Shown: positions 2,169-31,770, counted from the stretch's first letter. The stretch: DNA of 64,000 nucleotides from Candidatus Dojkabacteria bacterium (GCA_034005145.1 JAVEVH010000001.1:1899-65898), one strand, 5' to 3'. A program made the numbers and translations. The notes: a model not told the origin generated them from the letters alone.

Positions 2169-2186
2169 TTTCTATTAAATAGAATA

Positions 2187-2215
2187 AAAAGAGGGTATTA
2201 ATACCCTCTTTTTTG
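2187..2215 (+). terminator. Rho-independent terminator after rpsA
   Basis: Hairpin aagagggtat-taa-taccctctt followed by tttttgg. Confidence 0.6.
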
Positions 2216-2222
2216 GTATAAT
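2214..2222 (+). promoter_or_regulatory. Extended -10 element TGGTATAAT 5 nt upstream of the clpC ATG (putative leaderless transcript)
   Basis: Exact TGnTATAAT match. The same 9-mer recurs at 845, 7841, 48368 and 51700. Confidence 0.4.
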
Positions 2223-2227
2223 GAGAT

Positions 2228-12087: not shown

Positions 12088-15000
12088 ATGATAAAAACTA
12101 ACTGCCCAAATATAGCAAAAAACTTATTCATTTTGCTGATAGTATCCTTTATTTTTGCTAGCTTAATCCTTACTCCAACATATGCTTTAACATCCGACAC
12201 TATTAACTTCCAAGGGAAGATAGTAAGAAATGATACAGGCTATGAGGGACTCAATGTCATACCAGGTACTCCAGCGTGTGTAGTAAGTGGTGCAAGTAAT
12301 GATACCTGTGACTTCCAAGTAGCATATTACACAGCATCAACAGGAGGTACCCTTCTTCTTACAGAAACATTCTTAAACAGAGAGATAGGGGAATATGAGG
12401 GTATATTTGAGCTTTCCTTAGGCAGTGGATCTGTGACTACTACTGGGCAGTGTAGGGATGGTACCTGTAATACCGTAGGTGAGGTAATTTCAGAGTATGG
12501 TGATATATATCTTGAATTAAAATTTGCTCCTGATGGTACAAACTTAACAGAGACCTTTAACAGGATGCCTTTAGAAGCAAGTGCATATTCAATTTTTTCT
12601 AAATATGCAGAGGGTGCACACGATGCTTTTAAACTAAGTACTTCCATTAGTTCTCAAACACAATCATCTCCTACAACAGGTATGGTGTATTACAATACCA
12701 CTGCAGGAGAGGTACAAGTCTACAATGGGAGTGGATGGGAGAACATTAGTGGTGAGTCCTTGTGGACAGATGCAGGAACATTTACCTACCTTACCTCGGC
12801 AAGTGATGATTTAGTACTTGGTGCTAATACTGTAGCTGGTTCTACATTTTTCTTTGATATGGATGGGAGTAGTGGAAGCTACTTTGAGATAGATAATGGT
12901 GCTAATACAGAAAGGCTTTTTACAATATTAGCTAATGGAAATGTTGGAATAGGTACAGCATCTCCCGGAGCTAAGTTGGAAGTGGCTGGGGCAAGTTCCA
13001 CGATTACAAATTCTACTGGTAACCTCACTATTTCGACTGGTGGGTTAAATGGAAATATCATATTTTCACCACATGGGACTGGTACTGTTCTAGTTGAGTC
13101 TACATTTGGGATTAAAGAGACGGGTACAACTCCAACCTACTACACATATTTTCAAGGTGGAGATCAGGGGGGTAACATTACTTATACATTACCAGTAAAT
13201 GATGGTGATGCTTCCCAAGTACTTACTTCAAATGGTAGTGGTGTTCTTAGTTGGAGTACAGTCCTAACAGGTGCTTCTAGATGGAATGAGATAGCGGCTC
13301 CTAATGGTAATACTTCAATGAGTCATGGTACATATACAACATCTTTTACATTTACAAATACAACAACATCATCATTTAGTTTAACGGGTAATAGTATATC
13401 TTCTGGTAAATTATTTTCTTTAGCTTCTTCTTCAGTAGGGTTAACAGGTTCAGTAGCGGATATTACATTGTCTGGTAGTAATGCAGCTAATACAGGGAGT
13501 TTGCTTAGTTTAAATAATACGGGGACTTTAAATACAGGTACTACAATGGTAATAAATCATTATGCTACTGGTACTAATAACTTAGCATTTAGAGTAAATG
13601 ATGTATCAGCAGATACTACACCATTTGTAATAGATGGGAATGGGAATGTGGGAATTGGGACAACTACCCCAGAAGGGTCACTGACTGTAAATGGTAGTGT
13701 TGGTATTGGTGATAATGCGAGTATAACGCAAGCCAGCCATTTTGTTGACATATATTCGACAACAGATTACGGTGGATCAAATGAATCTACTTTAAGAGTA
13801 AGAACAGCAGTAGAAGGTAATTTGACAGGTACTGAGATGGCTGCACTTGCATATAGAAATTCAAATTGGCGAGTTCTTTATGCTCAGCAGGGCAGTGCAG
13901 GTTCAGCACTCTATACAGATGGAAATGTCCATTTTATGAATGGAAGTGTTGGTCTTGGTACGACAAGTCCTCAGAGTATCTTTAACATATATCACGCAAC
14001 GGATCCTAAAATAACACTTCAGAACAGTACTACAGGAGTAACAAGTACAGATGGGTTCTATATTTCAGAAATTGGCTCCAATGCATATTTGTGGAATAGA
14101 GAAGACGGAGAGATGTATTTTGCAGTCAATAATGGCACTGCCTTGACTATTCAAGCGGATAAAGATGTAATTGTAAATTCCGGTAACGTAGGAATAGGTG
14201 ACACCACCCCCGCCTCTCTCTTCACAGTAGGTAACAATGATGTGTTCCAAGTAAGCAGTACAGGAGATTTAGTAAGTATAAAGGGAGTCTCTTATGTATG
14301 GCCAAGTGCTAATGCAACAGGAATGTTAACAAACAATGGAAGTGGAACATTATCATGGACAGATTTAAATGCAGGAGATGAATTATTACCAACAGGAACA
14401 GAAGGACAGATGTTATATAACAATGCAGGAGTATGGACAGCATATAGTGGAATGTATTGGGATGATGTAAATAGTAGATTGGGGATAGGGACTACGAGTC
14501 CAAGTACAAAGTTTGATTTGGTAGGAAATATGAAGACCTCAGGTTCAATATTTTCGGATGAGTCTGGTCCTCAACAAATAATCAAATTCCCAAATGTATA
14601 TGAGCCTGTGAATTTCGGTGCAAGTACTGGTGCAATAAAAATCAAGTTGCCAGCAAGAGCAGACAATGCAATGGTTAAAATAATAGTTGATATATATTCT
14701 TATAGCGGCAGTCAGTTAGCGGCTACATATGAGATAGGTGGGTATAATATTGGTGGGTCTTTTACTGCTAGCTATGCTTATACTCTTACTGGAAAGAGTT
14801 TCTTCCTCAATCTCCCAGTTAGATTTGGTGATGATTCTACCAATCTTATGTCATATATAATTATAGGGAATACTGATACCGCATGGGGGTCTTATTCTCC
14901 ATCTGTGGTTATTAGAGAAGTTCAGATTACAGGCTGGGGTGCTAGTACAAGTACAAATTGGCAAGATCCAAATAGTTATGAAATTACTATGACTACGGAT

Positions 15001-18000
15001 ACAACAGGTTTAACACTTTCAACGATAGCATCAACAACATCTCCAGCAGTGTTAGCGGGTAGTGTATCTGGTCTTACCGCTGGATCAATTCCGTATGCTT
15101 CTTCAGCAGGATCCCTTACTCAGAATAATGCGAATCTCTTCTGGGATGCTACCAATGCTAGAATAGGATTAGGAACAAATACTACAACAGCGAGAATTAC
15201 CTTAGGAGCCTCAACTGCTGCTACGGGAGGAATAGATTTTGGTGGAGATACTCCGTTATATAGATCCGCTGCAAGTATTCTTAAGACAAGACATTTATAT
15301 CCAGAAACGACAGGGACATATAATTTAGGTAATTCTTCCTTAGAGTGGCAATATATCTACGCTACAAGGATAATTGGTTCTGCGTATATAAATTCTGATT
15401 ATTTTGCTAGATATTCAGTAAATAATACTGCTTTTTTTGACTCGACTGCAGGAAATCCAGAATTGAGGGTTTATGGAAATGATGGTGCATTTAAATATGG
15501 ATATATGAAAGTTGATACTAACGGTGCATTTAATATTCTTTCTCAAACAGGTGAGGAGGTGAAATTGGGAGCTAATAATACTGTAGGTTTAACAATCGCG
15601 ACTTCAAATAACGTAGGAATAGGTGACACCTCCCCCGCCTCCCTCTTCACAGTAGGTAACAATGATGTGTTCCAAGTAAGCAGTACAGGAGATTTAGTAA
15701 GTATAAAGGGAGTCTCTTATGTATGGCCAAGTGCTAATGCAACAGGAATGTTAACAAACAATGGAAGTGGAACATTATCATGGACAGATTTAAATGCAGG
15801 AGATGAATTATTACCAACAGGAACAGAAGGACAGATGTTATATAACAATGCAGGGGCATGGACAGCATATAGTGGAATGTATTGGGATGATACAAATAGT
15901 AGGTTAGGGATAGGGACTACGAGTCCTGGAGCAAAATTACAAATAAATACAGGTGCAGACGCTACGAAGGGGTTAATAATAAGAGGGAATACCTCTCAAT
16001 CTGCCAATTTAACAGAATGGCAGAATAGTGGAGGGACAATTCTTGCAAGTGTAGATAGGATTGGTCATTTATCTGTTAATAATATACAGGCTTTATATGG
16101 AGGTTCTGCACAAGTAGATTCTATTGGAGGAACTTCATATTTGCCATATATGACGGATGCCTATTCAGATCAATTTATATTTAAACCTGTAACATCCTTA
16201 GAATATGACACAACAGGTTCTGGAAACTGGGTATCTCAAACAGCAAGCAATGCAAATGTTCTATTGGATAATTCTCAGAGTACATCATTAGCTATTCCAA
16301 CTGCTACTGCAAAAGGATTTAGGGTAGTTATCAATACAGGAGCTTGGTTGGCCCCTCAACTATTTGTTTTGGAGCAATCTTGGGCAAGCGGGAGCCCAAG
16401 TGGATCAGCACCACTTGAAATCACCCTTGAATCATCTCCCAATGGAACTGATACTTGGACTGTAAGAAAAGCTACTACAGCATTTGATTACCATGGTAGT
16501 AGTACAAATAAATATGTTTGGTTAACCGGTCATACAAGTGATCCTTATTGGAGAGTTACTGTTGTAAGGACAGATACTGGTACACAGGATCTTAGAGTTC
16601 AAAATATAAAGCTTTTGGCTTCATCAAATATGAGTTTTGGTTATACAAGGAGTTTACCATATGAATTTAACTATGATAAAAGTTTCAATTTCTACAATGA
16701 TAGTATGAAGATTAAATTAGCTAGTGGCCAAACAGCTAATGCGATTGAAATAAAGAATAGTTCAGGAACAGACCTTGCACTCATCTCCTCTGCTGGAGGT
16801 GCTTATTTTGCTAGCAACGTAGGAATAGGTGATACTACCCCCGCCTCTCTGTTTACAGTAGGTAATGGAGATCTATTCCAAGTAAACAGTAGTGGAGATT
16901 TAATAAAAATAAAAAATGTAACATACTCATGGCCAAGTGCTAATGCAAGTGGAGTATTAACAAACAATGGAAGTGGAACATTATCATGGACAGATTTAAA
17001 TGGAGGAGATGAATTATTACCAACAGGAACAGAAGGACAGATGTTATATAACAATGCAGGAACATGGACAGCATTTAATGGAATGTATTGGGAGGATGTA
17101 AATAGTAGGTTAGGGATAGGGACTACGAGTCCATTAAGCAGCTTAGACCTTAATAACGGAATTCTTTCTAGATATAACTCAAGTTGGACTGGTCTTAACA
17201 ATTCTGTAATAATTCCAACTCAAAACATTCTAGCTTTTGCAGATAAAAATTCTAATTATACAGTAACATTATCATCTCAGCCTGACTCAGGAAGTGTATC
17301 AAGTTTATTTGATGGTAATACGGGTACTACAGCTCTTTGGTATGATGCGAAATTGCCACTAACGATTCAGATAGATTTAGATAAACAGTACAATCTTAAT
17401 CATTTGTTTGGTGTAGGTTTTTATGGCCAATATTTTGCAAAGGATATAAAAATTGAAGTCTACAATGGAAATACTTCTACTTGGTATACAATTGTAGATA
17501 CTACTTCGAATGCTGATGATAGTTTTTCTTTCTACCAATATTATAACTACGTAACCAAGGTAAAGTTTACGTTCAATACATCAAATTCAAGTGGACGTAT
17601 AAATATCTCTACCCTCGTAGATGGTAATACCATGGATAGGAAGGGATATTATGTAAACAAGGGAGGGGATACTATGTATGGTGCTCTTACTATCAAGGGT
17701 ACAACCTCAGATAGTAGTGCTTTTGGACTTAACGTTACTGATTCAGCTAATGCTAGTAACTTTTATGTCAGAAATGATGGAAATGTTGGTATAGGGACTA
17801 CCACTCCTGGTTCAAGATTAGATGTTACAGCAAGTACCTCAAATGCTCTTGTAAATATTAATCAAACAAATACTTGGTCAGGATCGGAATGGGCATTATC
17901 GGTAACAGGGTATACAAATCTTAACGGGTTTAGAATAAATGCTGCAGATGGTATTAGGGCTCTTCATAAAGTGACTGCGGGTGGTGTAATGGGATTCTCA

Positions 18001-21000
18001 ACTCAAGGAGATGATCCTATCACATTCACGCAGTCTTCTAGCACTGAGAGAATGCGTATTGCTACTGGAGGTAATGTAGGAATCGGTGACACAACCCCCG
18101 CCTCTCTCTTTACAGTAGGTAGTGGAGACCTATTCCAAGTAAATAGTAGTGGAGATTTAATAAAGATTAAAAATGTAACATACTCCTGGCCAAGTAGTAA
18201 TAGTAGTGGAGTATTAACAAACAATGGAAGTGGAACATTAACATGGACAAACATAAGTAGTAGCTTATTACCAACAGGAACAGAAGGACAAATGTTGTAT
18301 AACAATGCAGGGACATGGACAGCATTTAATGGAATGTATTGGGATGATGTGAATAGTAGGTTAGGGATAGGGACTACGAGTCCTACTGCATATTTAGACA
18401 TAGAGTCTCCTGATGCAACTAGTTTACATCAAGAATGGAAAAGAGTAGATACAGGGAAAAGCTTTAATATTAGCCTTGCAGGTAGTGATTGGAGATTATC
18501 AGGTAGTGCAGGAGAAAACATCCTTCTAGCAGTTGATGCAAGCAGTTTAAATACAACAAACCTTGTAGGTATTGGAAGTAGTAACCCTGGTGCGAAATTA
18601 CAAATAGATACAGGAGCAGATGCTACTAAGGGTTTAATAGTCAAGGCGAATTCCGCAACTCAATCTGCAAATCTTACAGAATGGCAGAATAGTGCGGGTA
18701 CTGTATTAGGAGCAGTGACACCAACTGGAGCTTATTATATTGGTTCAAGCTCAAACTATACAACAGCTTTTACGGTTAAGGGCTCTTGGAGTGCTTCTAC
18801 TTACGGTATGATTTTAGACTTAGAACCAAGTGTAACTATTAGTGGATATGGTGGGTATGGCATATATTCAAATCCTTCAGTTACCCTTACAAACAGTAGT
18901 TGGAAAACAATTGAGAGTTCAATTAACAATCTCGTTGTTACAGGTACAAATGATTATAGAGGTTTCCATTTTAGTCAACCTGCGAATCTCACTGGAACAT
19001 TGACCAGCCAATACGGTATATATATTAACAGCTTAGACAAAGCAACCTCTAACTATGCTATTTATACAAACACAGGATTAAATAGGCTAGGTGATCAATT
19101 ATCTATTCTTGGTAGTGCAGATAGAACACAGTTAATAGTTAAGGCCAATTCTACACAAACTGTTAATCTTCAAGAATGGCAAAATAGTAGTGGAGTTGGA
19201 CTTTCTGTAATTAGTGGAAGCGGTTATTTAGGAGTAGGAGATTCAACCCCTGCCTCTCTCTTTACAGTAGGTAGTGGAGACCTATTCCAAGTAAATAGTA
19301 GTGGAGATTTAATAAAGATTAAAAATGTAACATACTCCTGGCCAAGTAGTAATAGTAGTGGAGTATTAACAAACAATGGAAGTGGAACATTAACATGGAC
19401 AAACATAAGTAGTAGCTTATTACCAACAGGAACAGAAGGACAGATGTTATACAACAATGCAGGAACCTGGACAGCATACAGTGGAATGTATTGGGATGAT
19501 GTGAATAGTAGGTTAGGGATAGGGACTACCAGTCCTCAGAGTACTGCACATGTATATGGAGCTTCCTCTATCAATACTATTTCAGGTATTTTTGGTAGGG
19601 GTTACCAAGTAGACAGTACAAACTATGGGTCCTTTGGTGCGAATTCTAGAGTAGGTCTTGTTGGAGCAACATACTATTCTAGCGTACCTAATTTACCCAT
19701 TAACCCCCTTGGTACACAGTATGCATCTGCTGGTTTGGTTGGTATAGGAGGGGGTACTAGTGGAGGTGGCTCGGGAATAGGAGTTTTTGGTTATGGACAA
19801 ACAGTTGATGCGAGAACTGGATTTACTGCAGGTGGTAGATTTATTGCTGAGACAAACGGAGATATCACAGCATATGAAGATTTGTATGGTGTTTATGCTA
19901 AAGCTAACGGTATTACTAATACTGTTGGGGCAGATAATTTATATGGTGTATATGGAGTTGCAACTGGGCAAGGTACGGATATTGCTTACGCAGGATATTT
20001 TTCAGCTACCGGGGGTGCTACTAATTATGGAATATATTCTGTAGCCGGTAACAACTATTTTAATGGTAGTGTTGGGATCGGCACAACCTCCCCAGACTAT
20101 ACCCTTCAAGTAAACGGAACCATAGCACCAGAGACAACAGATCAAGATCTAGGTACATCATCTTTAAGATGGGATGTATATGGTAATACAATAAATGCAG
20201 ACAGTACAGTAACCTTAACAGGCTTAGGAACAGGAACAGATAACTCAGTAGTAATATTAAACTCATCAAATCAATTAACAACAGATGAGATAGACAGTAG
20301 AGTATGGGGAACAAGCTTAGTAGATGGAAGTGGAACAACAGGTCAGTTATCCTACTGGGTAGATGCAAATACATTAGGCTCCCTAAGTTACTCAGGTTGG
20401 GATACAAATGCTAGTGATGATGTAACAGCATTCTTAGGTCTAACAGATACCCCAAGTGCATATACAGGCAATGGAGGATACTTAGTAAGAGTAAATTCAG
20501 GAGGAACAGCATTAGAGTTTGTAGCAGCTAGTACATATACAGATACCAATGACTATGTAGACTCAGTAGGATTTAATACAAGTAACGGAGTATTAACCCT
20601 AGGTAGAACAGGAGCATTACCAGACCTAACAACAGACTTAGATGGAAGATATTTACAATCAGAAGCAGATACCCTAGCTACAGTAACCGGTAGAGGAGCA
20701 AGTACAGCAACAGCACTCTCTCTAACCGGAGGAGCTACAGTAAGAGGTTTAACAGTAGATAATGCAACAGCAACCCATGACTTAATATCCATAACCGCAG
20801 CAGCAACAGGTGCCGCAAGATATACAGGAACCATAACTAATGCAGACCTAACAGCAGCACGTACATGGACATTCCCAAATAATACAGGTACTGTAGCACT
20901 AACTACTGATATACCAGCAGGAGCAACATATTGGACTAAGAATGCAGCAACCTTGTATCCTACAACCTCAGGAGATAGTGTAATACCTAATGGAACAGCA

Positions 21001-24000
21001 AGTATAGGAGCAAGTGGAACTAGATGGCAGTATGTATACGGTACATATGGAAACTTTAGTACAAGTACCACAACTCCATTGATAGTAGGTAGTACATCCT
21101 TAGCTTTAAGACCAAGTAGTAATGGAACAACAGCAATACAATTACAGAATGCAGCAGGCACAAGTATCTTAAACGTAGATACAACTAACAGTAGAGTAGG
21201 GATTGGTAAAAATGATCCAACAGTAGCTTTAGATGTAGTAGGTGATATTAAAGCAAGTGGCGTAATTAGAAATGTAACAGTTAGTGGTACTACTGATACC
21301 GCTGCAGCTACAGCAGCTAAAACTGCCACTATTTCTAACTATACATTAACTACTGGAGACTTACTCTCTATTACATTTACAAATGGTAACTCTGTCTCTA
21401 CACCAACCTTAAATATCAACTCTGTTGGAGCTGTTAATATTAGATTAGGAAATACTGATGTTAATACAACAAATATGACATTAGCAGCAGGCTCTACAGT
21501 ACTCATGTATTACGATGGTACATATTTCCAAATTATGGGTTCTCAAAGAACAGCAGATTCTAATACATATGATAGGACATATTGGGGTAATAATATTAGA
21601 GCAGGTGCAGCTATATATGATTACAAATTGTTAATGCAAAAAGCAGATGGTAAATGGTATCCATTAACATTAGAAGAAGGTACTGGAACTACTAAAACCG
21701 TATCTACAGAAGCATTTACAATTAATTCTCCAATTCTTTACTATGCAACAACTACGAATATAGCTGCTAATGGAACATTAAGTAATGTGTATAGTGAGAT
21801 ACCAACTACATATCTTAACTATACAGCTAACCAAGCTTCATGGACCACAGAGCTTCCTATATATCTTGTAGGTACGATAGATAGTAGTGGTAATTTTGTA
21901 TTAGACAACACCTCGTATACCAGCTTTATGACACAAACCTTACCTTCAACAGAAGATGGGAAGGTATATATACTCTTAGGACAGATGTACTCTACTACAG
22001 GGCTAAGACTATTCCAATATCACCCTATATATGAGTATAGGAATGGGGGAGTAAGACCGTATGCACCAGAAGCATCAGTAAAATGGAGTAGCCTATTTGC
22101 ACCAACTGATAACACCTCTATAGATCATTCTACATATACAACAGCATTCTCATTTGGAGCTACTAATACAACAGCATTTAGTATGACAGGTAATAGTTTA
22201 ACTACAGGGAAATTACTATCCCTCACCTCATCATATGCTGATGCAGGAAATGTCTTCTATGTAGGTGCTACAGGGGCACACACAGGTGCTGCAGCAGCAA
22301 TTGTTTCTGCTACAGCTACAGGAAATGCTTTAAATGTAACAGGAGACTCTATTACAAGTGGAGTAGTAACAAACATATCATCAACATCAACAGAGGGAAC
22401 AACAAGTGGTTCTTCAATAGTATTAAATATTGCAAGATCGGGAGTTAATACTTACGCAGATCATACTGCATACGGAGTATATTCAACAGTATCAAATACA
22501 AACGTTACTAGTGGTACTAATATTGCAGGTTACTTTAGTGCATCAGGAGCAACAACAGCCAACTACGGATTATTAGTCCCAGAAGGTTATGTAGGAATTG
22601 GAACTGGAACTCCAAGTAGGCTATTAGATATTGATGGAGATATGAGACTAAGAGGCTTTATATATGACGTCAATGATGAATCTGGTACCTCAGGACAAAT
22701 CCTTTCTAGATCTAGTTCTGGAGTAGATTGGATAGATGCAAGCGCTCTTAGTGGAGTAGATTGGGATGAAATAGGGGACCCTTCATCATCTTCTCAAATA
22801 GATCATGGAGCTACAAATACAATCTTTACCTTCAATGGATTAACAAGTGGAGCAGGATTCCAACTCTCTTCTAACTCTACTGCTGGAACAGCCAGCAGCT
22901 ATAGCAGGGTATTAGATATTACTAGGTCAGGGGTTAATGCTAATGCATCTCACACTGCCTACGGTGTATATTCTGCAGTAACAAATAGTGGGTCTTCATC
23001 AACTAATGTCGGTGGATATTTCTCTGCATCAGGTGGTACTAGTAACTTTGGATTAATTGTAGGAAATGGAAATGTAGGAATAGGAACAACCAATCCATCA
23101 ACATCTAAATTGGTAGTTAATACCTCCTCATACTCTACAATACAGTTACAGTATGGAGGAACAGCAGTAGTAGATATATATAGTAATGTATCAAGTAACA
23201 TCTTTATGGGATTAGCTTCTGGTCAAGCAGTTACTAGTGGTATTGAAAATGTAGCATATGGATTTAACGCATTAACTGCAAATACAACAGGTACAAGAAA
23301 TGTAGCAATTGGACACCAAACAATGACTACCAATGTAGCAAAGCAGGGTAGTACAGCAATTGGATACCAAGCTATGATGTATGCACATAATACTACAACA
23401 GGATCATTAACATACAATACCGCAATTGGATACCAAGCATTAGTAGGTAGTGCAACAGCAGCAAATAATACGGGAACAGGTAATACAGCAGTAGGACATC
23501 AAAGTTTAACATCAAATACCTCTGGTTCAAGTAATACAGCATTAGGTGTAAATGCATTGAATAGTAATGCTACAGGAGGTTCTAATGTAGCATTAGGATA
23601 CAATGCTGCATTTACAAATGTAGCTAAGGGAGGGATAGTAGCAATTGGTTATGAAGCTATGAGATATGCATATAGTAATAGTACAGTAGCAAGTACATAT
23701 AACATAGGTATTGGATATCAAGCATTAATGGGTAGTACAACAGCTGCAAATAACTCAGGAGTAGGTAATACTGCATTAGGATATCAAGCTGGTATGGATG
23801 TAACCTCTGGTAACTATAATACATTGATAGGATATATAGCAGGTGATGATTTAACAACTGGTATTAACAATACAATAATTGGATATAACGCTGGACAGAA
23901 TCTAACAACAGGAGGTAGTAATATCTTAATTGGTAATGGAACTTCTACTACAACTCCTGCAGCTGGTACAAGTAACTGGATGAATATTGGTAATGCAATA

Positions 24001-27000
24001 TATGCAAACCTTAGTACAGGTAATGTAGGAATAGATACAGGCTCTGCAGTTCCTGGAGCTAAATTACAAATAGGAGCAGGAACGTATGGACCAGGTGCTA
24101 ATCTGTCAGGTAATAGATTACAGATAAGCTCTAGCTCTGGTTGGGCATATATGACAATAGGTAATGCAGATGGTGCTAATACCCACAGATATATTGGTGG
24201 AGCAAGTGGAATACAGGCATTTGGTGTAGTATCTGATGCAGGATCTACTACAGAACATATGAGAATTACTTCTACAGGTAATGTAGGAATAGGGGATAGT
24301 AACCCTCTCTCACTACTTTCTGTAGGTACTGGTGGACTCTTTAGAGTAGATAGTGCAGGAGATTTAACTAGAGTAAAGGGAGTAACATACTCATGGCCAA
24401 GTGCAAATGCTACTGGTATATTAGCAAACAATGGTAGTGGTACACTCTCATGGTCATCACTAACAAGCTTAGGTGGAGCATTAGGTACAGGTGCAGCAGG
24501 TAGAGCAGCATTCTGGACAGATACCAATACCCTATCTAGTGATAGTAATTTTGCTTGGGATAATGTAAATAAGAGATTAGGTATTGGTACTAGTACACCA
24601 CAATATTCATTAGATATAGCTGGTTCTACATCAGAAATAGGTAATACAGCAGGAGATATTACTATTAATCCTACAGGTAATTTAATATTATCTGATGGTA
24701 GATTTGGTATAGGTACTACTAATCCTCAAGCCTCTATAGATATAGCAGGAGCTACATCAGAGATAAGTAATGTTAGTGGGGATATAACTATTAATCCTGC
24801 TGCTAACCTTATTATTACTGATGGAAATGTAGGGATAGGTGAGAGTACTCCTACAGGCGTTATAGATGCTATATATTCCACTTCTGCAGGTACTAGGAAA
24901 ATGGTTTTAACTAGTTCAGGACTTCGTTTTAGGAGGACTGGGGACACGGCTGCTTGGGCAATAAATGGCTATGGATTTAGTTCAAACAATGGTACGGATC
25001 TTGGTGGATTTGGGGCTTATGGTACAGAGACATCTCTTAATTATTACTATATAGGAACTACTTATTCCTCTCCTCTTATGTCTATTTCCAGTGGGGGAGC
25101 TGTTGGTATTGGAGTTGCTTCTGCTACCAAAACTCTTGAAGTAGCTGGTAATATGAAAATGTCCTACACAAACACAGGTACAGGTAGTACAGATATCTTT
25201 GATACTACATATACACAATCTGTAGCAGCTCCTGCAGGTACTATTAATGGTGGTATGTTTAAAGCTATCTTTAATACCACTGGTACTATGTATGATATGG
25301 CTGCTTTAAAAACAGATATTCAAAATACTAGTAGTGGTACAGTAAGTAGAATGTTTGGATTTAGAAATGAAATACATAATGAAAGTACAGGAACTGTTAC
25401 ATTAGCATCCTCTATATATGGTAGAGGATACCAAGCAGATGCAGCAGGTACTATCTCTGGATTACATACATTCTGGGCTGAGGGAGCATATAAAGGGGCC
25501 GCAGGTACTATCACTGGTCAAACAGGTTTAACAGTAAGTGGTTTAACTACTGCTACTAACAATACGCACATCTTATTAGGTACAGCATCTATACCTACAG
25601 GTAACTACGCTATATATAGTAGTACTTCCTCTGCTAGTTACTTCGCAGGGGATCTTACTACATCCAGAGCATTTGTAACAGGTTTATCTTCGAGCTGGGG
25701 TGTTACAAGTGGTGTAAATACAGGTGGTGTAAATGTGACTATGGGAACATCTTCAGCTGCAACATGGCTAATCTCTGGAACAAGTGGTGGGACTTTCCGT
25801 GCAGGTTTACAGGCACTTGATAGTAGTGGAATATTAAGAATATATTCTAATAGTAGTTATGTTTCTTTTGATGGAGGAGCTATCTCCGCTACAGGTGCAG
25901 TAAATGTAGGATCTTTACAAATTAATAGTACTACTCCAACATTAACATTCAATGAAACAGATCAAGTAGCTTGGACATACTCTATAGATGGAGATCAGTG
26001 GTTAGTTAAGAGAAGTGGTGTAGATAAGTTGGTAGTAAATAATGCAGGATCTTTAATTATTAAGGGAGATTTATCAAATAATGAGGATTCGACAGTATAT
26101 ATGGGTGCTACAGCTTCAAGCTCATCCTTAAGGCTTAAGAGTAATAATTCAGATACTCTTACTCTATACTCCAATGGTAATGTAGGTGTGGGTAATACTG
26201 CTCCTGCAGCTAAATTAACTGTAGGATCAAATATAACGGGAAGTGCTGCTAGTACAACCTTCCAGACTAATGCAGGATCTTTAGGGACAGCAATTTACAG
26301 CTCATTAAAATTAGCATCTATAGGGTTTACTTCCTCAAATCAATCATCTTTGACTATCTTGGGATATAGGCATACTGCTGGTACAAACTGGGACACAACC
26401 TCTATTGGTATAGGAATGAGTGTAGATTCGTCAACCTATGTAAATGATGCTGCATTATGGATTAGTCATCATGGGCACGTTGGAATAGGCGCTGGTGCTA
26501 TGTCATATAAATTTGAGGTAACTGATAACGATGCTGCATATACTACAATGTCCCAAAATACTTATACAGGAGCTAATAAGAAAAACTTATTAATAAGAAA
26601 TTATAGCTCTAATGGTAGTTTTGCTACCTCTGACTATCTCGTCGTATTCTCTAATACATATAACTGGGGTGTTAATGGAAGAATAAATGGTAATGGTACT
26701 GGAATTCAATATACGACATCATCAGATGCAAGACTTAAAACAAACGTTAGTTCCATTTCTAACGCACTTGATACTTTAATGAAGATGGATGCAGTCACCT
26801 ATAATTGGATTAATGGTGGGGCTAAAGATGCAGGTTTCTTAGCTCAAGACTTACAGCCACTCTATCCATTTGCAGTTAGTGGGAGTCCTGATGGAGATCC
26901 AATAATGGATCCAATGACTATTGATTACGGTAAATTAACACCAATAATTGTTGCTGCAATAAAGGATTTAAATAAGAAGGTGGATTCTAATGTATTAGGA

Positions 27001-28161
27001 ATCCAAAACCAGATAGAAGAAATAGAGGATTCCTTAGGCTTACTTCCAACTCCTACTTACAATATCTCTACCTCAGGTTGGTACCGTATATCTCAACTAA
27101 ACGGTCCTGATGATTACGCTAAGATAAAGGTAAATAATAGTACATTAGGATCATCACAAAACCTCATACTAAGTGTAGATACAGTAGGGGGAAATAATAA
27201 TGTAAATATAATATCTAACTTTACTACTGGAGGATATGACATTAGTAAAGCAAGAATAAATGAAGTAAGTGGTATTAAATACTTAGAAATATACTTAGAA
27301 AATGTAAATAATAATAGTATTAAGGTAGATATAGATGGAGATATAACTAACTGGATATCTACAAACATTACTAAAGTAGATGACACTCTAATAGTTGAAA
27401 AAGAGTATGAATTCAGTGGATTACTCTTTGGAGTAAGTGATACCCTAGAAGTAGAAGAAGGAAGTATGAGAGTAAAAGGAAATCTCTTAACAAACTCCGA
27501 TGAATTAAATAACATTGGAGAAGATACAAACAGATGGAATGATATATATGCTAAAGGTGCAATAAGGTTAGGAAGTGGAGTAGGAAATGAGGGAGCAATT
27601 AGATTTAATGTAGAAAATCAAGTATTAGAATTTAGTAATGACGGTACTACATGGGTACAACTAGGAGACCTAAGCTCTCAAACAGTAATATCTCCAGAAT
27701 ATCCAGGAGCCATACTCTTTGCAGACGGAAGTGATAACTTTGGAAATATGACATCTGATGCAGAAGAGAGTACAGGCTCATTCAGAAACTACTACGAATG
27801 GATATCAGACAGAGAAACACTTCAAGATTACGATATCTTAGTAAGAGTAACACTACCATCTGACTTTGTAAGTTGGAAAGATGATGCAATATATCTAGAC
27901 TTCATGACCGAAAACTCAGCCTCTATTAACAACAACAAAGTAGATATGTATTTAATGGGAAGTAACGGAATTGACGCTCAAGTAAATGATGGAATTAGTA
28001 AATTACCAGGAGCATGGGAAAGAGTAAGTATTAAAGCAATAGATATAAATGATTGTAATAACGCAGGAGATACATGTACTCTAAGAATCTCTCTAAGCTC
28101 TCTACAATCATACTTCGTAAGAGTAGGAGACATTACATTAAATTACAACAGAGGATTGTAA
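12088..28161 (+). CDS. Giant (5357 aa) secreted/membrane-anchored modular surface protein: tail-fibre-like Gly/Thr/Ser/Asn-rich repeats, Hep_Hag-like block, internal S74 intramolecular-chaperone autoprotease domain
   Basis: Single uninterrupted ORF with an N-terminal hydrophobic signal/anchor (LFILLIVSFIFASLILTPTYA). Repeated modules ...NVGIGDTTPASLFTVG...SWPSANATG.LTNNGSGTLSWT...LPTGTEGQMLYNNAG.WTA..GMYWDD.NSRLGIGTTSP. Hep_Hag-like N.A.G..AL repeats (aa ~3715-3950). S74-like motif TSSDARLKTNV...TIDYGKLTPIIVAAIKDL (aa ~4875-4985). Confidence 0.8.
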   Translation: MIKTNCPNIAKNLFILLIVSFIFASLILTPTYALTSDTINFQGKIVRNDTGYEGLNVIPGTPACVVSGASNDTCDFQVAYYTASTGGTLLLTETFLNREIGEYEGIFELSLGSGSVTTTGQCRDGTCNTVGEVISEYGDIYLELKFAPDGTNLTETFNRMPLEASAYSIFSKYAEGAHDAFKLSTSISSQTQSSPTTGMVYYNTTAGEVQVYNGSGWENISGESLWTDAGTFTYLTSASDDLVLGANTVAGSTFFFDMDGSSGSYFEIDNGANTERLFTILANGNVGIGTASPGAKLEVAGASSTITNSTGNLTISTGGLNGNIIFSPHGTGTVLVESTFGIKETGTTPTYYTYFQGGDQGGNITYTLPVNDGDASQVLTSNGSGVLSWSTVLTGASRWNEIAAPNGNTSMSHGTYTTSFTFTNTTTSSFSLTGNSISSGKLFSLASSSVGLTGSVADITLSGSNAANTGSLLSLNNTGTLNTGTTMVINHYATGTNNLAFRVNDVSADTTPFVIDGNGNVGIGTTTPEGSLTVNGSVGIGDNASITQASHFVDIYSTTDYGGSNESTLRVRTAVEGNLTGTEMAALAYRNSNWRVLYAQQGSAGSALYTDGNVHFMNGSVGLGTTSPQSIFNIYHATDPKITLQNSTTGVTSTDGFYISEIGSNAYLWNREDGEMYFAVNNGTALTIQADKDVIVNSGNVGIGDTTPASLFTVGNNDVFQVSSTGDLVSIKGVSYVWPSANATGMLTNNGSGTLSWTDLNAGDELLPTGTEGQMLYNNAGVWTAYSGMYWDDVNSRLGIGTTSPSTKFDLVGNMKTSGSIFSDESGPQQIIKFPNVYEPVNFGASTGAIKIKLPARADNAMVKIIVDIYSYSGSQLAATYEIGGYNIGGSFTASYAYTLTGKSFFLNLPVRFGDDSTNLMSYIIIGNTDTAWGSYSPSVVIREVQITGWGASTSTNWQDPNSYEITMTTDTTGLTLSTIASTTSPAVLAGSVSGLTAGSIPYASSAGSLTQNNANLFWDATNARIGLGTNTTTARITLGASTAATGGIDFGGDTPLYRSAASILKTRHLYPETTGTYNLGNSSLEWQYIYATRIIGSAYINSDYFARYSVNNTAFFDSTAGNPELRVYGNDGAFKYGYMKVDTNGAFNILSQTGEEVKLGANNTVGLTIATSNNVGIGDTSPASLFTVGNNDVFQVSSTGDLVSIKGVSYVWPSANATGMLTNNGSGTLSWTDLNAGDELLPTGTEGQMLYNNAGAWTAYSGMYWDDTNSRLGIGTTSPGAKLQINTGADATKGLIIRGNTSQSANLTEWQNSGGTILASVDRIGHLSVNNIQALYGGSAQVDSIGGTSYLPYMTDAYSDQFIFKPVTSLEYDTTGSGNWVSQTASNANVLLDNSQSTSLAIPTATAKGFRVVINTGAWLAPQLFVLEQSWASGSPSGSAPLEITLESSPNGTDTWTVRKATTAFDYHGSSTNKYVWLTGHTSDPYWRVTVVRTDTGTQDLRVQNIKLLASSNMSFGYTRSLPYEFNYDKSFNFYNDSMKIKLASGQTANAIEIKNSSGTDLALISSAGGAYFASNVGIGDTTPASLFTVGNGDLFQVNSSGDLIKIKNVTYSWPSANASGVLTNNGSGTLSWTDLNGGDELLPTGTEGQMLYNNAGTWTAFNGMYWEDVNSRLGIGTTSPLSSLDLNNGILSRYNSSWTGLNNSVIIPTQNILAFADKNSNYTVTLSSQPDSGSVSSLFDGNTGTTALWYDAKLPLTIQIDLDKQYNLNHLFGVGFYGQYFAKDIKIEVYNGNTSTWYTIVDTTSNADDSFSFYQYYNYVTKVKFTFNTSNSSGRINISTLVDGNTMDRKGYYVNKGGDTMYGALTIKGTTSDSSAFGLNVTDSANASNFYVRNDGNVGIGTTTPGSRLDVTASTSNALVNINQTNTWSGSEWALSVTGYTNLNGFRINAADGIRALHKVTAGGVMGFSTQGDDPITFTQSSSTERMRIATGGNVGIGDTTPASLFTVGSGDLFQVNSSGDLIKIKNVTYSWPSSNSSGVLTNNGSGTLTWTNISSSLLPTGTEGQMLYNNAGTWTAFNGMYWDDVNSRLGIGTTSPTAYLDIESPDATSLHQEWKRVDTGKSFNISLAGSDWRLSGSAGENILLAVDASSLNTTNLVGIGSSNPGAKLQIDTGADATKGLIVKANSATQSANLTEWQNSAGTVLGAVTPTGAYYIGSSSNYTTAFTVKGSWSASTYGMILDLEPSVTISGYGGYGIYSNPSVTLTNSSWKTIESSINNLVVTGTNDYRGFHFSQPANLTGTLTSQYGIYINSLDKATSNYAIYTNTGLNRLGDQLSILGSADRTQLIVKANSTQTVNLQEWQNSSGVGLSVISGSGYLGVGDSTPASLFTVGSGDLFQVNSSGDLIKIKNVTYSWPSSNSSGVLTNNGSGTLTWTNISSSLLPTGTEGQMLYNNAGTWTAYSGMYWDDVNSRLGIGTTSPQSTAHVYGASSINTISGIFGRGYQVDSTNYGSFGANSRVGLVGATYYSSVPNLPINPLGTQYASAGLVGIGGGTSGGGSGIGVFGYGQTVDARTGFTAGGRFIAETNGDITAYEDLYGVYAKANGITNTVGADNLYGVYGVATGQGTDIAYAGYFSATGGATNYGIYSVAGNNYFNGSVGIGTTSPDYTLQVNGTIAPETTDQDLGTSSLRWDVYGNTINADSTVTLTGLGTGTDNSVVILNSSNQLTTDEIDSRVWGTSLVDGSGTTGQLSYWVDANTLGSLSYSGWDTNASDDVTAFLGLTDTPSAYTGNGGYLVRVNSGGTALEFVAASTYTDTNDYVDSVGFNTSNGVLTLGRTGALPDLTTDLDGRYLQSEADTLATVTGRGASTATALSLTGGATVRGLTVDNATATHDLISITAAATGAARYTGTITNADLTAARTWTFPNNTGTVALTTDIPAGATYWTKNAATLYPTTSGDSVIPNGTASIGASGTRWQYVYGTYGNFSTSTTTPLIVGSTSLALRPSSNGTTAIQLQNAAGTSILNVDTTNSRVGIGKNDPTVALDVVGDIKASGVIRNVTVSGTTDTAAATAAKTATISNYTLTTGDLLSITFTNGNSVSTPTLNINSVGAVNIRLGNTDVNTTNMTLAAGSTVLMYYDGTYFQIMGSQRTADSNTYDRTYWGNNIRAGAAIYDYKLLMQKADGKWYPLTLEEGTGTTKTVSTEAFTINSPILYYATTTNIAANGTLSNVYSEIPTTYLNYTANQASWTTELPIYLVGTIDSSGNFVLDNTSYTSFMTQTLPSTEDGKVYILLGQMYSTTGLRLFQYHPIYEYRNGGVRPYAPEASVKWSSLFAPTDNTSIDHSTYTTAFSFGATNTTAFSMTGNSLTTGKLLSLTSSYADAGNVFYVGATGAHTGAAAAIVSATATGNALNVTGDSITSGVVTNISSTSTEGTTSGSSIVLNIARSGVNTYADHTAYGVYSTVSNTNVTSGTNIAGYFSASGATTANYGLLVPEGYVGIGTGTPSRLLDIDGDMRLRGFIYDVNDESGTSGQILSRSSSGVDWIDASALSGVDWDEIGDPSSSSQIDHGATNTIFTFNGLTSGAGFQLSSNSTAGTASSYSRVLDITRSGVNANASHTAYGVYSAVTNSGSSSTNVGGYFSASGGTSNFGLIVGNGNVGIGTTNPSTSKLVVNTSSYSTIQLQYGGTAVVDIYSNVSSNIFMGLASGQAVTSGIENVAYGFNALTANTTGTRNVAIGHQTMTTNVAKQGSTAIGYQAMMYAHNTTTGSLTYNTAIGYQALVGSATAANNTGTGNTAVGHQSLTSNTSGSSNTALGVNALNSNATGGSNVALGYNAAFTNVAKGGIVAIGYEAMRYAYSNSTVASTYNIGIGYQALMGSTTAANNSGVGNTALGYQAGMDVTSGNYNTLIGYIAGDDLTTGINNTIIGYNAGQNLTTGGSNILIGNGTSTTTPAAGTSNWMNIGNAIYANLSTGNVGIDTGSAVPGAKLQIGAGTYGPGANLSGNRLQISSSSGWAYMTIGNADGANTHRYIGGASGIQAFGVVSDAGSTTEHMRITSTGNVGIGDSNPLSLLSVGTGGLFRVDSAGDLTRVKGVTYSWPSANATGILANNGSGTLSWSSLTSLGGALGTGAAGRAAFWTDTNTLSSDSNFAWDNVNKRLGIGTSTPQYSLDIAGSTSEIGNTAGDITINPTGNLILSDGRFGIGTTNPQASIDIAGATSEISNVSGDITINPAANLIITDGNVGIGESTPTGVIDAIYSTSAGTRKMVLTSSGLRFRRTGDTAAWAINGYGFSSNNGTDLGGFGAYGTETSLNYYYIGTTYSSPLMSISSGGAVGIGVASATKTLEVAGNMKMSYTNTGTGSTDIFDTTYTQSVAAPAGTINGGMFKAIFNTTGTMYDMAALKTDIQNTSSGTVSRMFGFRNEIHNESTGTVTLASSIYGRGYQADAAGTISGLHTFWAEGAYKGAAGTITGQTGLTVSGLTTATNNTHILLGTASIPTGNYAIYSSTSSASYFAGDLTTSRAFVTGLSSSWGVTSGVNTGGVNVTMGTSSAATWLISGTSGGTFRAGLQALDSSGILRIYSNSSYVSFDGGAISATGAVNVGSLQINSTTPTLTFNETDQVAWTYSIDGDQWLVKRSGVDKLVVNNAGSLIIKGDLSNNEDSTVYMGATASSSSLRLKSNNSDTLTLYSNGNVGVGNTAPAAKLTVGSNITGSAASTTFQTNAGSLGTAIYSSLKLASIGFTSSNQSSLTILGYRHTAGTNWDTTSIGIGMSVDSSTYVNDAALWISHHGHVGIGAGAMSYKFEVTDNDAAYTTMSQNTYTGANKKNLLIRNYSSNGSFATSDYLVVFSNTYNWGVNGRINGNGTGIQYTTSSDARLKTNVSSISNALDTLMKMDAVTYNWINGGAKDAGFLAQDLQPLYPFAVSGSPDGDPIMDPMTIDYGKLTPIIVAAIKDLNKKVDSNVLGIQNQIEEIEDSLGLLPTPTYNISTSGWYRISQLNGPDDYAKIKVNNSTLGSSQNLILSVDTVGGNNNVNIISNFTTGGYDISKARINEVSGIKYLEIYLENVNNNSIKVDIDGDITNWISTNITKVDDTLIVEKEYEFSGLLFGVSDTLEVEEGSMRVKGNLLTNSDELNNIGEDTNRWNDIYAKGAIRLGSGVGNEGAIRFNVENQVLEFSNDGTTWVQLGDLSSQTVISPEYPGAILFADGSDNFGNMTSDAEESTGSFRNYYEWISDRETLQDYDILVRVTLPSDFVSWKDDAIYLDFMTENSASINNNKVDMYLMGSNGIDAQVNDGISKLPGAWERVSIKAIDINDCNNAGDTCTLRISLSSLQSYFVRVGDITLNYNRGL
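14185..19535 (+). repeat. Five near-identical ~311-317-bp direct repeats inside the giant gene (starts ~14185, 15610, 16816, 18073, 19236; spacing 1.16-1.43 kb)
   Basis: Copies 1/2 and 4/5 are about 97-99% identical at DNA level. They encode the conserved linker NVGIGDTTPASLFTVG...RLGIGTTSP between divergent ~300-aa modules. A sixth, diverged copy lies near 24290-24600. Confidence 0.8.
26701..27030 (+). other. Region encoding a peptidase-S74 / C-terminal intramolecular chaperone-like autoproteolytic domain (internal, about 480 aa from the C-terminus)
   Basis: Conserved S-D-x-R-L-K (SSDARLKTNVSS) followed by the ...DYGKLTPIIVAAIKDL... helix characteristic of phage endosialidase/tail-spike CIMCD domains. 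Confidence 0.6.
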
Positions 28162-31747: not shown

Positions 31748-31770
31748 CCCATTTAAAATATTTAAATGGG
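31748..31770 (+). promoter_or_regulatory. Perfect 10-bp-arm palindrome (cccatttaaa-ata-tttaaatggg) spanning the comEA start codon
   Basis: Arms at 31748-31757 and 31761-31770. The ATG (31766) lies in the 3' arm. Candidate operator or translation-occluding hairpin. Confidence 0.35.

What the first reader, a model, noticed from the sequence alone, without database searches (positions are those of the whole stretch)
14185..19535. Five near-identical ~315-bp direct repeats at ~1.2-1.4-kb spacing inside the giant gene: modular cassette architecture prone to recombination (and to assembly collapse)
Seen: copies starting ~14185, 15610, 16816, 18073 and 19236 are about 97-99% identical pairwise (1 vs 2; 4 vs 5) over >300 nt. 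Synonymous-site identity argues for recent duplication or gene conversion rather than selection on protein. Each copy encodes the conserved connector (NVGIGDTTPASLFTVG ... LPTGTEGQMLYNNAG.WTA.SGMYWDD.NSRLGIGTTSP) between unrelated ~300-aa variable modules. A diverged sixth copy is at ~24290-24600. Inference: homologous recombination between connectors could delete, duplicate or shuffle modules, varying fibre length or specificity. Alternatively the copy number is an assembly artefact.
Basis: seen in the sequence. Interest (0 to 1): 0.55.

Follow-up and report, generated by a model that had tools for sequence, protein, structure and literature searches.

The report
Repeated connectors in giant fibre gene
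A 16-kb gene for a giant, phage-tail-fibre-like surface protein of an uncultured Dojkabacteria (CPR) bacterium carries six copies of a 106-residue connector between unrelated modules, and related strains show that modules are gained, lost or replaced at such conserved junctions, much as in phage tail-fibre genes.

Summary
The core is about 318 nt. It lies at 14185, 15610, 16816, 18073 and 19225, with a diverged copy at 24280, all in frame in one 5357-aa ORF (12088-28161). Only c1/c2 (97.5%) and c4/c5 (94.6%) are near-identical. c1/c2 against c4/c5 is about 80%, c3 is a significant mosaic, and c6 is about 62%.

Low dS and exact central tracts of 212 and 191 nt indicate recent duplication or gene conversion.

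The organism is Candidatus Dojkabacteria. NCBI names the protein "tail fiber domain-containing protein". It has a Sec-type N-terminus and a Peptidase_S74 chaperone domain.

The syntenic gene in relatives is 1468-4030 aa with 0-1 connectors. The c1-c5 array lies in a segment of about 2450 aa that the 3091-aa orthologue lacks. Two strain pairs, 97% and 99.5% identical in the flanks, carry unrelated modules beyond a connector or GNVGIG motif.

Rapid switching is not shown: one orthologue is unchanged in six assemblies.

This resembles known phage tail-fibre mosaicism, here in a cellular CPR gene with an unannotated domain. Interest is moderate.

The parts
12088..28161 (+). Giant gene of 5357 aa. 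NCBI names it 'tail fiber domain-containing protein' of Candidatus Dojkabacteria (P0335). The protein is rich in G/S/T/N, has a Sec-type N-terminal signal or anchor, and contains 27 GNVGIG-type junction motifs.
   Evidence: organism
12088..13032 (+). N-terminal region, aa 1-315. It is conserved in orthologues: 50-84% aa identity, and 93% in the same-species strain L039.
13642..13659 (+). GNVGIG junction motif at aa 519-524. Nucleotide homology to strains L065 and L068 (89%) stops here, the L039 contig (96.7%) ends here, and L065 and L068 (99.5% identical to each other) diverge from one another here.
13033..20382 (+). Segment of about 2450 aa (roughly aa 316-2765) with no counterpart in the otherwise colinear 3091-aa orthologue. 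It contains the whole c1-c5 array.
14185..14502 (+). Connector c1 (aa 700-805).
14503..15609 (+). Variable module M1 (369 aa). No Pfam family; mostly orphan.
15610..15927 (+). Connector c2 (aa 1175-1280). It is 97.5% nt identical to c1, with a 212-nt exact tract.
15928..16815 (+). Variable module M2 (296 aa). No Pfam family.
16816..17133 (+). Connector c3 (aa 1577-1682), a mosaic. The 5' third resembles c4/c5 and most of the rest resembles c1/c2.
17134..18072 (+). Variable module M3 (313 aa). It has a near-threshold F5/8 type C (discoidin, sugar-binding) match at about 17263-17598.
18073..18384 (+). Connector c4 (aa 1996-2099). It carries a 6-nt in-frame deletion relative to c1-c3.
18385..19224 (+). 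Variable module M4 (280 aa). No Pfam family.
19225..19536 (+). Connector c5 (aa 2380-2483). It is 94.6% nt identical to c4, with a 191-nt exact tract.
24280..24600 (+). Connector c6 (aa 4065-4171), diverged (about 53% aa, 62% nt). It is the copy that matches best the single connector of the orthologue L042 (58% aa) and is colinear with the connector of the 3091-aa orthologue, so it is probably the ancestral copy.
24574..24825 (+). Two tandem 126-nt units (42 aa, DIAG.TSEI.N..GDITINP..NLI..DG.[FV]GIG) directly after c6. The L053/L054 breakpoint lies in the equivalent unit.
26722..26877 (+). Peptidase_S74 (intramolecular chaperone of endosialidase) domain, with an S-D-A-R-L-K motif at aa 4879-4884.
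27064..28158 (+). C-terminal region of about 365 aa downstream of S74. It is the best conserved part among orthologues (51-93% aa).
28074..31058 (+). Downstream Laminin_G_3 protein. It always follows the fibre gene in orthologous loci. Its true start is probably at about 28161, because the JGI gene call is 965 aa.

Best explanation
The repeats are six copies of a 106-aa connector domain inside a chromosomal gene for a giant secreted, tail-fibre-like surface filament of a Candidatus Dojkabacteria (CPR/Patescibacteria) cell. Each connector starts at a GNVGIGD motif and ends at an RLGIGTTSP motif, and it separates unrelated modules of about 300 aa. At least one module looks like a sugar-binding discoidin domain.

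Shown:
- Five copies form a lineage-specific array.
- Neighbouring copies have been homogenised or duplicated recently, as seen in low dS, exact tracts of about 200 nt and the mosaic c3.
- The gene at this syntenic locus differs about four-fold in length among related genomes.
- Closely related strains carry unrelated modules starting at or just after a connector or GNVGIG motif.

Inferred:
- Homologous recombination uses the conserved junction DNA as homology. This could be RecA-type unequal exchange or gene conversion within the gene, or allelic exchange with DNA from other strains.
- Because all copies are in the same codon phase, every such exchange gives an in-frame fibre with modules added, removed or replaced.
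- That changes the fibre's length and probably its binding specificity for a host or partner cell.
- The S74 domain probably drives trimer folding and self-cleavage, as it does in phage tail spikes.
For: Repeats and their exact limits.

One intact ORF with all spacings divisible by 3.

Recent homogenisation:
- dS is 0.07 and 0.18 within the two pairs, against 0.43-0.61 between them and about 1.1 to c6.
- Exact tracts are 212 and 191 nt.
- Differences cluster at the edges (P = 0.0012 and 1e-6).
- The c3 mosaic has p = 0.0002, and there are incompatible sites.
- The connectors share rare codons (ACC, CCC, GGG, ACG).

Organism and gene name. Tail-fibre kinship:
- Peptidase_S74 scores 51-53 bits against a cutoff of 22, with an SDARLK motif.
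- PHROG tail-fibre, tail-spike and long-tail-fibre families match.
- The connector occurs in IMG/VR viral contigs, in one case next to a tail-spike-like gene.

Syntenic orthologues of 1468, 1494, 1537, 1788, 3091 and 1734-4030 aa carry 0-1 full connectors. The array lies in a segment absent from the colinear 3091-aa orthologue.

Module replacement next to junctions: L053 against L054; L065 against L068 against the window. Family-wide patchwork of modules. Other genes of the family have their own dispersed repeats of 90-96% identity.

Exchange at conserved motifs is documented for T-even tail-fibre adhesins (PMC3157838).
Against: - No recombination event was observed directly for this genome, because no second full-length allele of the same species was available.
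- The 3091-aa orthologue is identical (0-3 aa differences) in six independent assemblies, so turnover is not fast in that population.
- The L065/L068 contrast rests on short-read contigs that end inside the gene. A jump of the assembler between junctions of one gene cannot be fully excluded.
- Breakpoints at motifs could reflect selection for foldable recombinants rather than a preference of the recombination machinery.
- The function of the fibre, its trimeric state and S74 cleavage are inferred. Both structure predictions were of low confidence.
- Another 430 aa or so follow the S74 domain, unlike the classical C-terminal chaperone.
Confidence: 0.68

Rival explanations
1. By-product only. 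The connectors are an ordinary structural domain of the fibre, copied recently by segmental duplication or brought in together with modules. They have no particular role in generating variation. The length differences among orthologues arise by unrelated insertions and deletions, and only breaks at domain boundaries survive selection.
For: The domain is widespread: 3174 cluster representatives at E <= 1e-3. Its two halves occur separately, and in some proteins it forms regular tandem arrays (P0192). One orthologue is stable across six assemblies.
Against: The sharp limits of identity at the two motifs, the central exact tracts, the mosaic c3 and two independent strain pairs diverging at or next to junctions are what recombination at these sequences predicts. 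The modules between the copies share no similarity, so simple unit duplication does not explain the array.
Confidence: 0.2
2. Assembly artefact. Either the copy number or the module order is wrong, or the consensus was homogenised in the repeats.
For: Short-read contigs of related strains break inside the gene at repeats or junctions: L039, L065 (which ends 148 nt into a connector), L049, L050, L075 and L076. The exact tracts of 191-212 nt exceed usual k-mer sizes.
Against: - The 16-kb ORF is intact.
- Every copy has private substitutions (8 between c1 and c2, 17 between c4 and c5).
- Every copy has unique flanks on both sides, so each repeat pair has only one linear path that uses each module once (inference).
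- The c4/c5 6-nt indel and the c3 mosaic are not what collapse produces.
- NCBI and JGI hold the same 77,496-bp contig with one 5357-aa CDS.
Confidence: 0.06
3. A programmed diversification system. This would be either a diversity-generating retroelement target, or an antigenic-variation locus fed from silent cassettes or driven by a site-specific recombinase.
For: CPR genomes often carry DGRs (my own knowledge). The gene is clearly variable among strains.
Against: No reverse transcriptase or recombinase lies among the ORFs scanned from 227 to 43758. The substitutions between copies are not adenine-specific. No connector copy occurs outside the gene in the 64-kb window. An orthologue is invariant across six samples.
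Confidence: 0.03
4. A prophage tail-fibre gene, that is, part of a virion rather than of the cell.
For: The S74 domain and PHROG tail-fibre and tail-spike matches, and the presence of the domain in viral contigs.
Against: The neighbours are housekeeping genes: Nth, S1, ClpB, RadA, Rho, M23, LeuRS on one side, and LamG, PPIase, ComEA, ComEC, ArgRS on the other. This order is conserved in many Dojkabacteria genomes. GC content is uniform. No other phage genes were seen.
Confidence: 0.03

Closest known systems
T-even phage long-tail-fibre and adhesin genes (gp37/gp38), with conserved glycine-rich or His-box motifs separating hypervariable segments
   Same: Short conserved Gly-rich motifs (here GNVGIGTTxP) separate variable segments, and exchanges map in or near the conserved motifs and give chimeric fibres (PMC3157838, compared). 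Both are fibrous, Gly/Ser/Thr-rich proteins with mosaic relationships among relatives.
   Different: - This is a cellular chromosomal gene in conserved housekeeping synteny.
- It is 5357 aa, several times longer than gp37 (my own knowledge).
- The variable units are whole modules of about 300 aa, not loops of tens of residues.
- A full 106-aa connector of 318 nt is the repeated element.
- There is no sequence homology to gp37/gp38.
Phage tail spikes and fibres with a C-terminal intramolecular chaperone (Peptidase_S74; endosialidase type)
   Same: A Pfam S74 match above threshold with a Ser...Lys motif, and PHROG tail-spike and long-tail-fibre matches around it.
   Different: The S74 domain is not terminal: about 430 conserved residues follow it. 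There is no phage context. Cleavage and trimerisation were not tested.
Giant 'tail fiber domain-containing' or 'cell wall surface anchor' proteins of CPR/Patescibacteria
   Same: Homologues of 1000-7400 aa occur in Dojka-, Uhr-, Moran-, Woese-, Saccharibacteria and Parcubacteria. Many have S74, the same connector domain and their own dispersed repeats.
   Different: Among the relatives examined, this protein has the most full connectors (6 against 0-3) and the only array of near-identical ones. I found no published description of the family.
Gram-positive surface adhesins with near-identical tandem repeats (Rib/alpha-C, SasG, Ebh type; my own knowledge)
   Same: Nucleotide-identical in-frame repeats inside a surface-protein gene, with the repeat region differing in length among strains.
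   Different: In those adhesins the repeats are contiguous copies of one domain. Here the repeated connector alternates with unique, unrelated modules, so recombination changes content as well as length.

Membership tests
Peptidase_S74 / intramolecular-chaperone tail-fibre-like proteins | Pfam PF13884 match above the gathering score | tested here: met
   51-53 bits against a cutoff of 22, at aa 4879-4930
Peptidase_S74 / intramolecular-chaperone tail-fibre-like proteins | Conserved Ser and Lys at the start of the domain (the autocleavage dyad; my own knowledge of the endosialidase chaperone) | tested here: met
   S4879-D-A-R-L-K4884 is present. Cleavage itself cannot be tested here.
Peptidase_S74 / intramolecular-chaperone tail-fibre-like proteins | The chaperone domain forms the extreme C-terminus and is released | tested here: not met
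   About 430 further residues follow the domain, and these are the best conserved part among orthologues
Peptidase_S74 / intramolecular-chaperone tail-fibre-like proteins | Trimeric beta-helical or fibrous region upstream | not testable with these tools
   The monomer AF2 models had pLDDT 65 and 41. The composition (G, S, T and N together 45%) is compatible.
Phage virion tail fibre (prophage gene) | Located among phage structural or packaging genes | tested here: not met
   Housekeeping neighbours in conserved synteny
Motif-guided mosaic fibre/adhesin genes (T-even gp37/gp38 type) | Conserved short motifs separate variable segments | tested here: met
   27 GNVGIG-type motifs. The identity of the connectors starts and stops at them.
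Motif-guided mosaic fibre/adhesin genes (T-even gp37/gp38 type) | Exchange breakpoints between related genomes fall in or near the conserved motifs | tested here: met
   L065, L068 and the window diverge at GNVGIG aa 519-524. L053 and L054 diverge about 30 codons after their connector.
Motif-guided mosaic fibre/adhesin genes (T-even gp37/gp38 type) | Sequence homology to gp37/gp38 | tested here: not met
   No such Pfam or NCBIfam match. PHROG matches are to other tail-fibre families. The connector has no match among GenBank phages.
Diversity-generating retroelement target | Reverse transcriptase nearby, and a template/variable repeat pair with adenine-specific differences | tested here: not met
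   No RT among the ORFs scanned from 227 to 43758. The differences between copies are mixed transitions and transversions.
Cassette-based antigenic variation (pilE/pilS, MgPa/MgPar, vls type) | Silent donor copies outside the expressed gene | tested here: inconclusive
   There are none in the 64-kb window. The rest of the genome was not available.
Tandem-repeat surface adhesins | Repeated units are contiguous | tested here: not met
   The copies are 1152-1425 nt apart, with unique modules between them

The most novel reading that the evidence does not exclude
The GNVGIG-bounded connector is a built-in exchange handle. It would let these genome-reduced episymbionts swap host-recognition modules of a phage-derived, S74-folded surface fibre by homologous recombination with DNA taken up from relatives. 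The fibre gene sits three genes upstream of ComEA/ComEC. On this reading, the module set of this one hypervariable locus sets the host range of a Dojkabacteria strain, making it a cellular counterpart of host-range switching by phage tail fibres.
Probability: 0.2. Interest if true: 0.75.

Novelty: new variant of a known kind. Interest (0 to 1): 0.45.

Why it matters
CPR/Patescibacteria are thought to live attached to other cells, yet how they recognise partners is largely unknown. This locus is a conserved-position, strain-variable, tail-fibre-like surface gene, and its variation is organised around a recognisable junction motif and an unannotated connector domain. That domain is found in more than 3000 protein clusters at E <= 1e-3.

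If the modules determine partner specificity, the locus gives a concrete marker for strain-level host range. It also offers a testable case of phage-style modular receptor evolution in a cell.

On the practical side, genes of this family break short-read assemblies at their internal repeats. Their lengths and copy numbers in MAG catalogues should therefore be treated with care.

Tried and rejected
- Structure of connector c1 with flanks (AF2, 27-sequence alignment): pLDDT 65, only three beta-hairpins visible. It was too weak for a fold search.
- Structure of module 3 from a single sequence: pLDDT 41, unusable. No fold searches were run for that reason.
- PDB sequence searches with the connector profile and with the C-terminal 720 aa found nothing significant.
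- NCBIfam found nothing. Pfam found only S74 and a near-threshold discoidin match.
- Same-species full-length alleles could not be obtained. The exact-protein look-up of LeuRS found no contig. Look-ups of Rho, PPIase and relatives' LeuRS gave only fragments that end in the gene. A degenerate DNA pattern for PTGTEGQMLYNNA in JGI metagenome contigs gave six distant loci and not the window itself.
A 3100-aa query then worked.
- DGR, silent-cassette and prophage readings were considered and rejected (see rival explanations).
- The literature searches found no description of this protein family in CPR.


Full report
**1. The observation**

A direct-repeat search of 12-27 kb finds one family of six copies with start-to-start spacings of 1425, 1206, 1257, 1152 and 5055 nt. 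A MAFFT alignment with flanks shows that similarity begins at the codons for N-V-G-I-G-D and ends at those for G-I-G-T-T-S-P. Outside this core of about 318 nt, identity drops to about 30%, the random level.

Connector coordinates are:

| Copy | Window coordinates |
|---|---|
| c1 | 14185-14502 |
| c2 | 15610-15927 |
| c3 | 16816-17133 |
| c4 | 18073-18384 |
| c5 | 19225-19536 |
| c6 | 24280-24600 |

All copies lie in one ORF, 12088-28161, of 5357 codons without a stop. All spacings are multiples of three.

Nucleotide identities are:

| Pair | nt identity |
|---|---|
| c1-c2 | 97.5% |
| c4-c5 | 94.6% |
| c3 against either pair | 87-90% |
| c1/c2 against c4/c5 | 79-81% |
| c6 against the others | 61-64% |

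The intervening modules are 369, 296, 313 and 280 aa. They share only short motifs with one another.

**2. Signs of recent homogenisation**

Nei-Gojobori dS is 0.07 for c1-c2 and 0.18 for c4-c5. It is 0.43-0.61 between the two pairs and about 1.0-1.2 to c6.

The differences within each pair lie at the edges. They leave exact tracts of 212 nt (c1/c2) and 191 nt (c4/c5), while other pairs share only 27-58 nt. If the same number of differences were scattered at random, tracts this long would arise with P = 0.0012 and 1e-6.

c3 resembles c4/c5 in its 5' third and c1/c2 over most of the rest. A maximum chi-square test places the breakpoint at alignment column 169, with permutation p = 0.0002. Columns 318 and 321 group c5 with c1/c2 and c3 with c4, which conflicts with the main split.

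The copies share codons that are rare in this gene, such as ACC, CCC, GGG and ACG. The substitutions are not adenine-specific.

Together these results indicate recent duplication and/or gene conversion, not protein-level selection alone.

**3. What the gene is**

The neighbouring genes are housekeeping genes. Upstream are Nth, S1, ClpB/C, RadA, Rho, an M23/LysM peptidase and LeuRS. Downstream are a Laminin_G_3 protein, cyclophilin, ComEA, ComEC, an MBL hydrolase, ArgRS, a sigma factor and RuBisCO. GC content is an even 33-39%.

Exact look-ups identify the source as a 77,496-bp contig of a Candidatus Dojkabacteria (WS6) MAG. The giant protein is annotated there as "tail fiber domain-containing protein".

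The protein has these features:
- A Sec-type N-terminus.
- 45% G+S+T+N.
- 27 GNVGIG-type motifs.
- A Peptidase_S74 domain at aa 4879-4930, scoring 51-53 bits against a cutoff of 22, with an SDARLK motif.
- About 430 further residues after the S74 domain.
- PHROG matches to tail-fibre, tail-spike and long-tail-fibre families.
- A near-threshold F5/8 type C match in module 3 (26.9 bits against a cutoff of 28.2, E = 5.7e-6).

No other module has a Pfam or NCBIfam match.

**4. The connector as a domain**

A profile of the six copies finds 3174 cluster representatives at E <= 1e-3 among 1.84 billion proteins, and 803 at E <= 1e-10. Many are giant proteins with several copies.

In species-representative genomes the domain occurs in Dojka-, Saccharibacteria, Parcu-, Uhr- and Peregrinibacteria, and also in Planctomycetota and Bacteroidota. 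Its two halves (profile positions 1-63 and 59-106) also occur separately.

It is present in 25 IMG/VR viral contigs. In one of them the connector-bearing protein sits next to a protein matching a tail-spike PHROG family. It was not found in GenBank phage genomes.

It has no Pfam family and no relative of solved structure by sequence. A monomer AF2 model was weak (pLDDT 65) and showed three beta-hairpins.

**5. Comparison with orthologous loci**

The gene order Rho, M23, LeuRS, X, LamG_3 is conserved in related Dojkabacteria, but X varies greatly in length:

| Locus or protein | Length of X (aa) |
|---|---|
| Window | 5357 |
| L042 | 1788 |
| L051/L052 | 1494 |
| L053 | 1537 |
| L054 | 1468 |
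| Rifle WS6 population | 3091 |
| Other relatives (N-termini 58-68% identical in the best local alignment; up to 84% over the first 100 aa) | 1734-4030 |

These proteins share the first 315-400 aa and the last 360 aa or so. Their middles are a patchwork. They carry 0-1 full connectors.

The single connector of L042 matches c6 best (58% aa). The 3091-aa orthologue is colinear with the window except that roughly aa 316-2765 of the window, which holds c1-c5, has no counterpart. The array is therefore a lineage-specific expansion, and c6 is probably the older copy.

**6. Breakpoints in close strains**

L053 and L054 encode the same Rho protein and are 97% identical up to about 30 codons past their connector. 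Then come 2.1 kb and 1.9 kb with no similarity at DNA or protein level, after which similarity resumes (89% nt). Both genes are complete and lie between LeuRS and LamG.

L065 and L068 are 99.5% identical over 5946 nt and then differ completely from the codons of GNVGI onward. The window is 89% identical to both and loses homology at the same place, 13638-13656. The contig of the 96.7% related strain L039 ends there too.

After its different module, L065 reaches a connector whose first 90 nt are close to c4/c5, and the contig stops inside that connector.

Caveat: L065 and L068 are short-read contigs that end inside the gene.

**7. Counter-evidence on tempo**

The 3091-aa orthologue is the same, with 0-3 aa differences, in six independent assemblies. 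The locus therefore varies between lineages and is not demonstrably switching within a population.

**8. Assembly question**

Short-read contigs of relatives often end at intragenic repeats or junctions. Other genes of the family have their own dispersed repeats of 90-96% identity.

For this window, collapse is unlikely. Each copy has private substitutions and unique flanks, and c4/c5 carry a 6-nt indel. For each near-identical pair, only one linear path uses every module once (inference). Read-level confirmation remains the decisive test.

**9. Interpretation and comparison with known systems**

The best-supported reading is a giant, modular, tail-fibre-like surface filament whose conserved junctions serve as recombination points. 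The closest known analogue is the mosaic evolution of T-even tail-fibre and adhesin genes, where exchanges occur in or near conserved glycine-rich motifs (PMC3157838).

The differences are that this is a cellular gene in stable synteny, it is very large, its cassettes are whole modules, its repeated connector is 318 nt long, and its S74 domain is not terminal.

A preprint on giant bacterial genes does not cover this family, and my other searches found no description of it.

I rate it a new variant of a known kind, of moderate interest.

Noticed in passing
window 13642-13659 (giant aa 519-524): This GNVGIG motif lies outside the reported interval. Three related strains (L065, L068 and the window) diverge completely at it, and the L039 contig ends at it. 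L065 and L068 are 99.5% identical up to that point.
   Followed up: yes
window 26722-28158: The Peptidase_S74 domain is not at the C-terminus. About 430 residues follow it, and they are the most conserved part of the protein among orthologues (up to 93% aa). Their role is unknown, and the C-terminal 720 aa have no relative of solved structure by sequence.
   Followed up: partly
window 23200-24040 (giant aa about 3704-3984): Internal repeats of about 95 aa with motifs such as NTAIGYQAL and NVALGYNA (53% identity between units). They recall the head repeats of trimeric autotransporter adhesins, which is a lead from memory only. Pfam gave no match here, although some homologues carry PF05658.
   Followed up: no
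window 24574-24825: Two tandem 126-nt (42-aa) units directly after c6. The same unit follows the single connector in orthologues and contains the L053/L054 breakpoint.
   Followed up: partly
window 28074-31058: A Laminin_G_3 protein of about 930-990 aa always follows the fibre gene in orthologous loci, so it may be a partner. The longest ORF overlaps the fibre gene by 88 nt. The JGI gene call (965 aa) starts right after the fibre's stop codon.
   Followed up: partly
window 31766-33975: ComEA and ComEC (DNA uptake) lie three genes downstream of the fibre gene. No functional link was shown.
   Followed up: no
L045:17394-17929 and 18393-18928: The 3091-aa orthologue has its own direct repeat of about 535 nt (93-96% identity, 999-nt spacing). 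L048, from a strain more than 99% identical, differs by about 182 nt inside the first copy and has a broken reading frame. This is either an assembly error or a real rearrangement.
   Followed up: partly
L050:12888 (LeuRS): One assembly of the Rifle population has a 95-nt gap in LeuRS that splits the gene into two ORFs. It is probably an assembly error.
   Followed up: no
window 42388-43758: A RuBisCO large-subunit homologue, as known for CPR nucleotide salvage (my own knowledge). It is unrelated to the finding.
   Followed up: no
P0192 (3894 aa): A protein from another lineage carries about ten regular super-repeats of roughly 330 aa, each containing connector-like units. In that lineage the same domain forms a homogeneous tandem array rather than separating unique modules.
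   Followed up: partly
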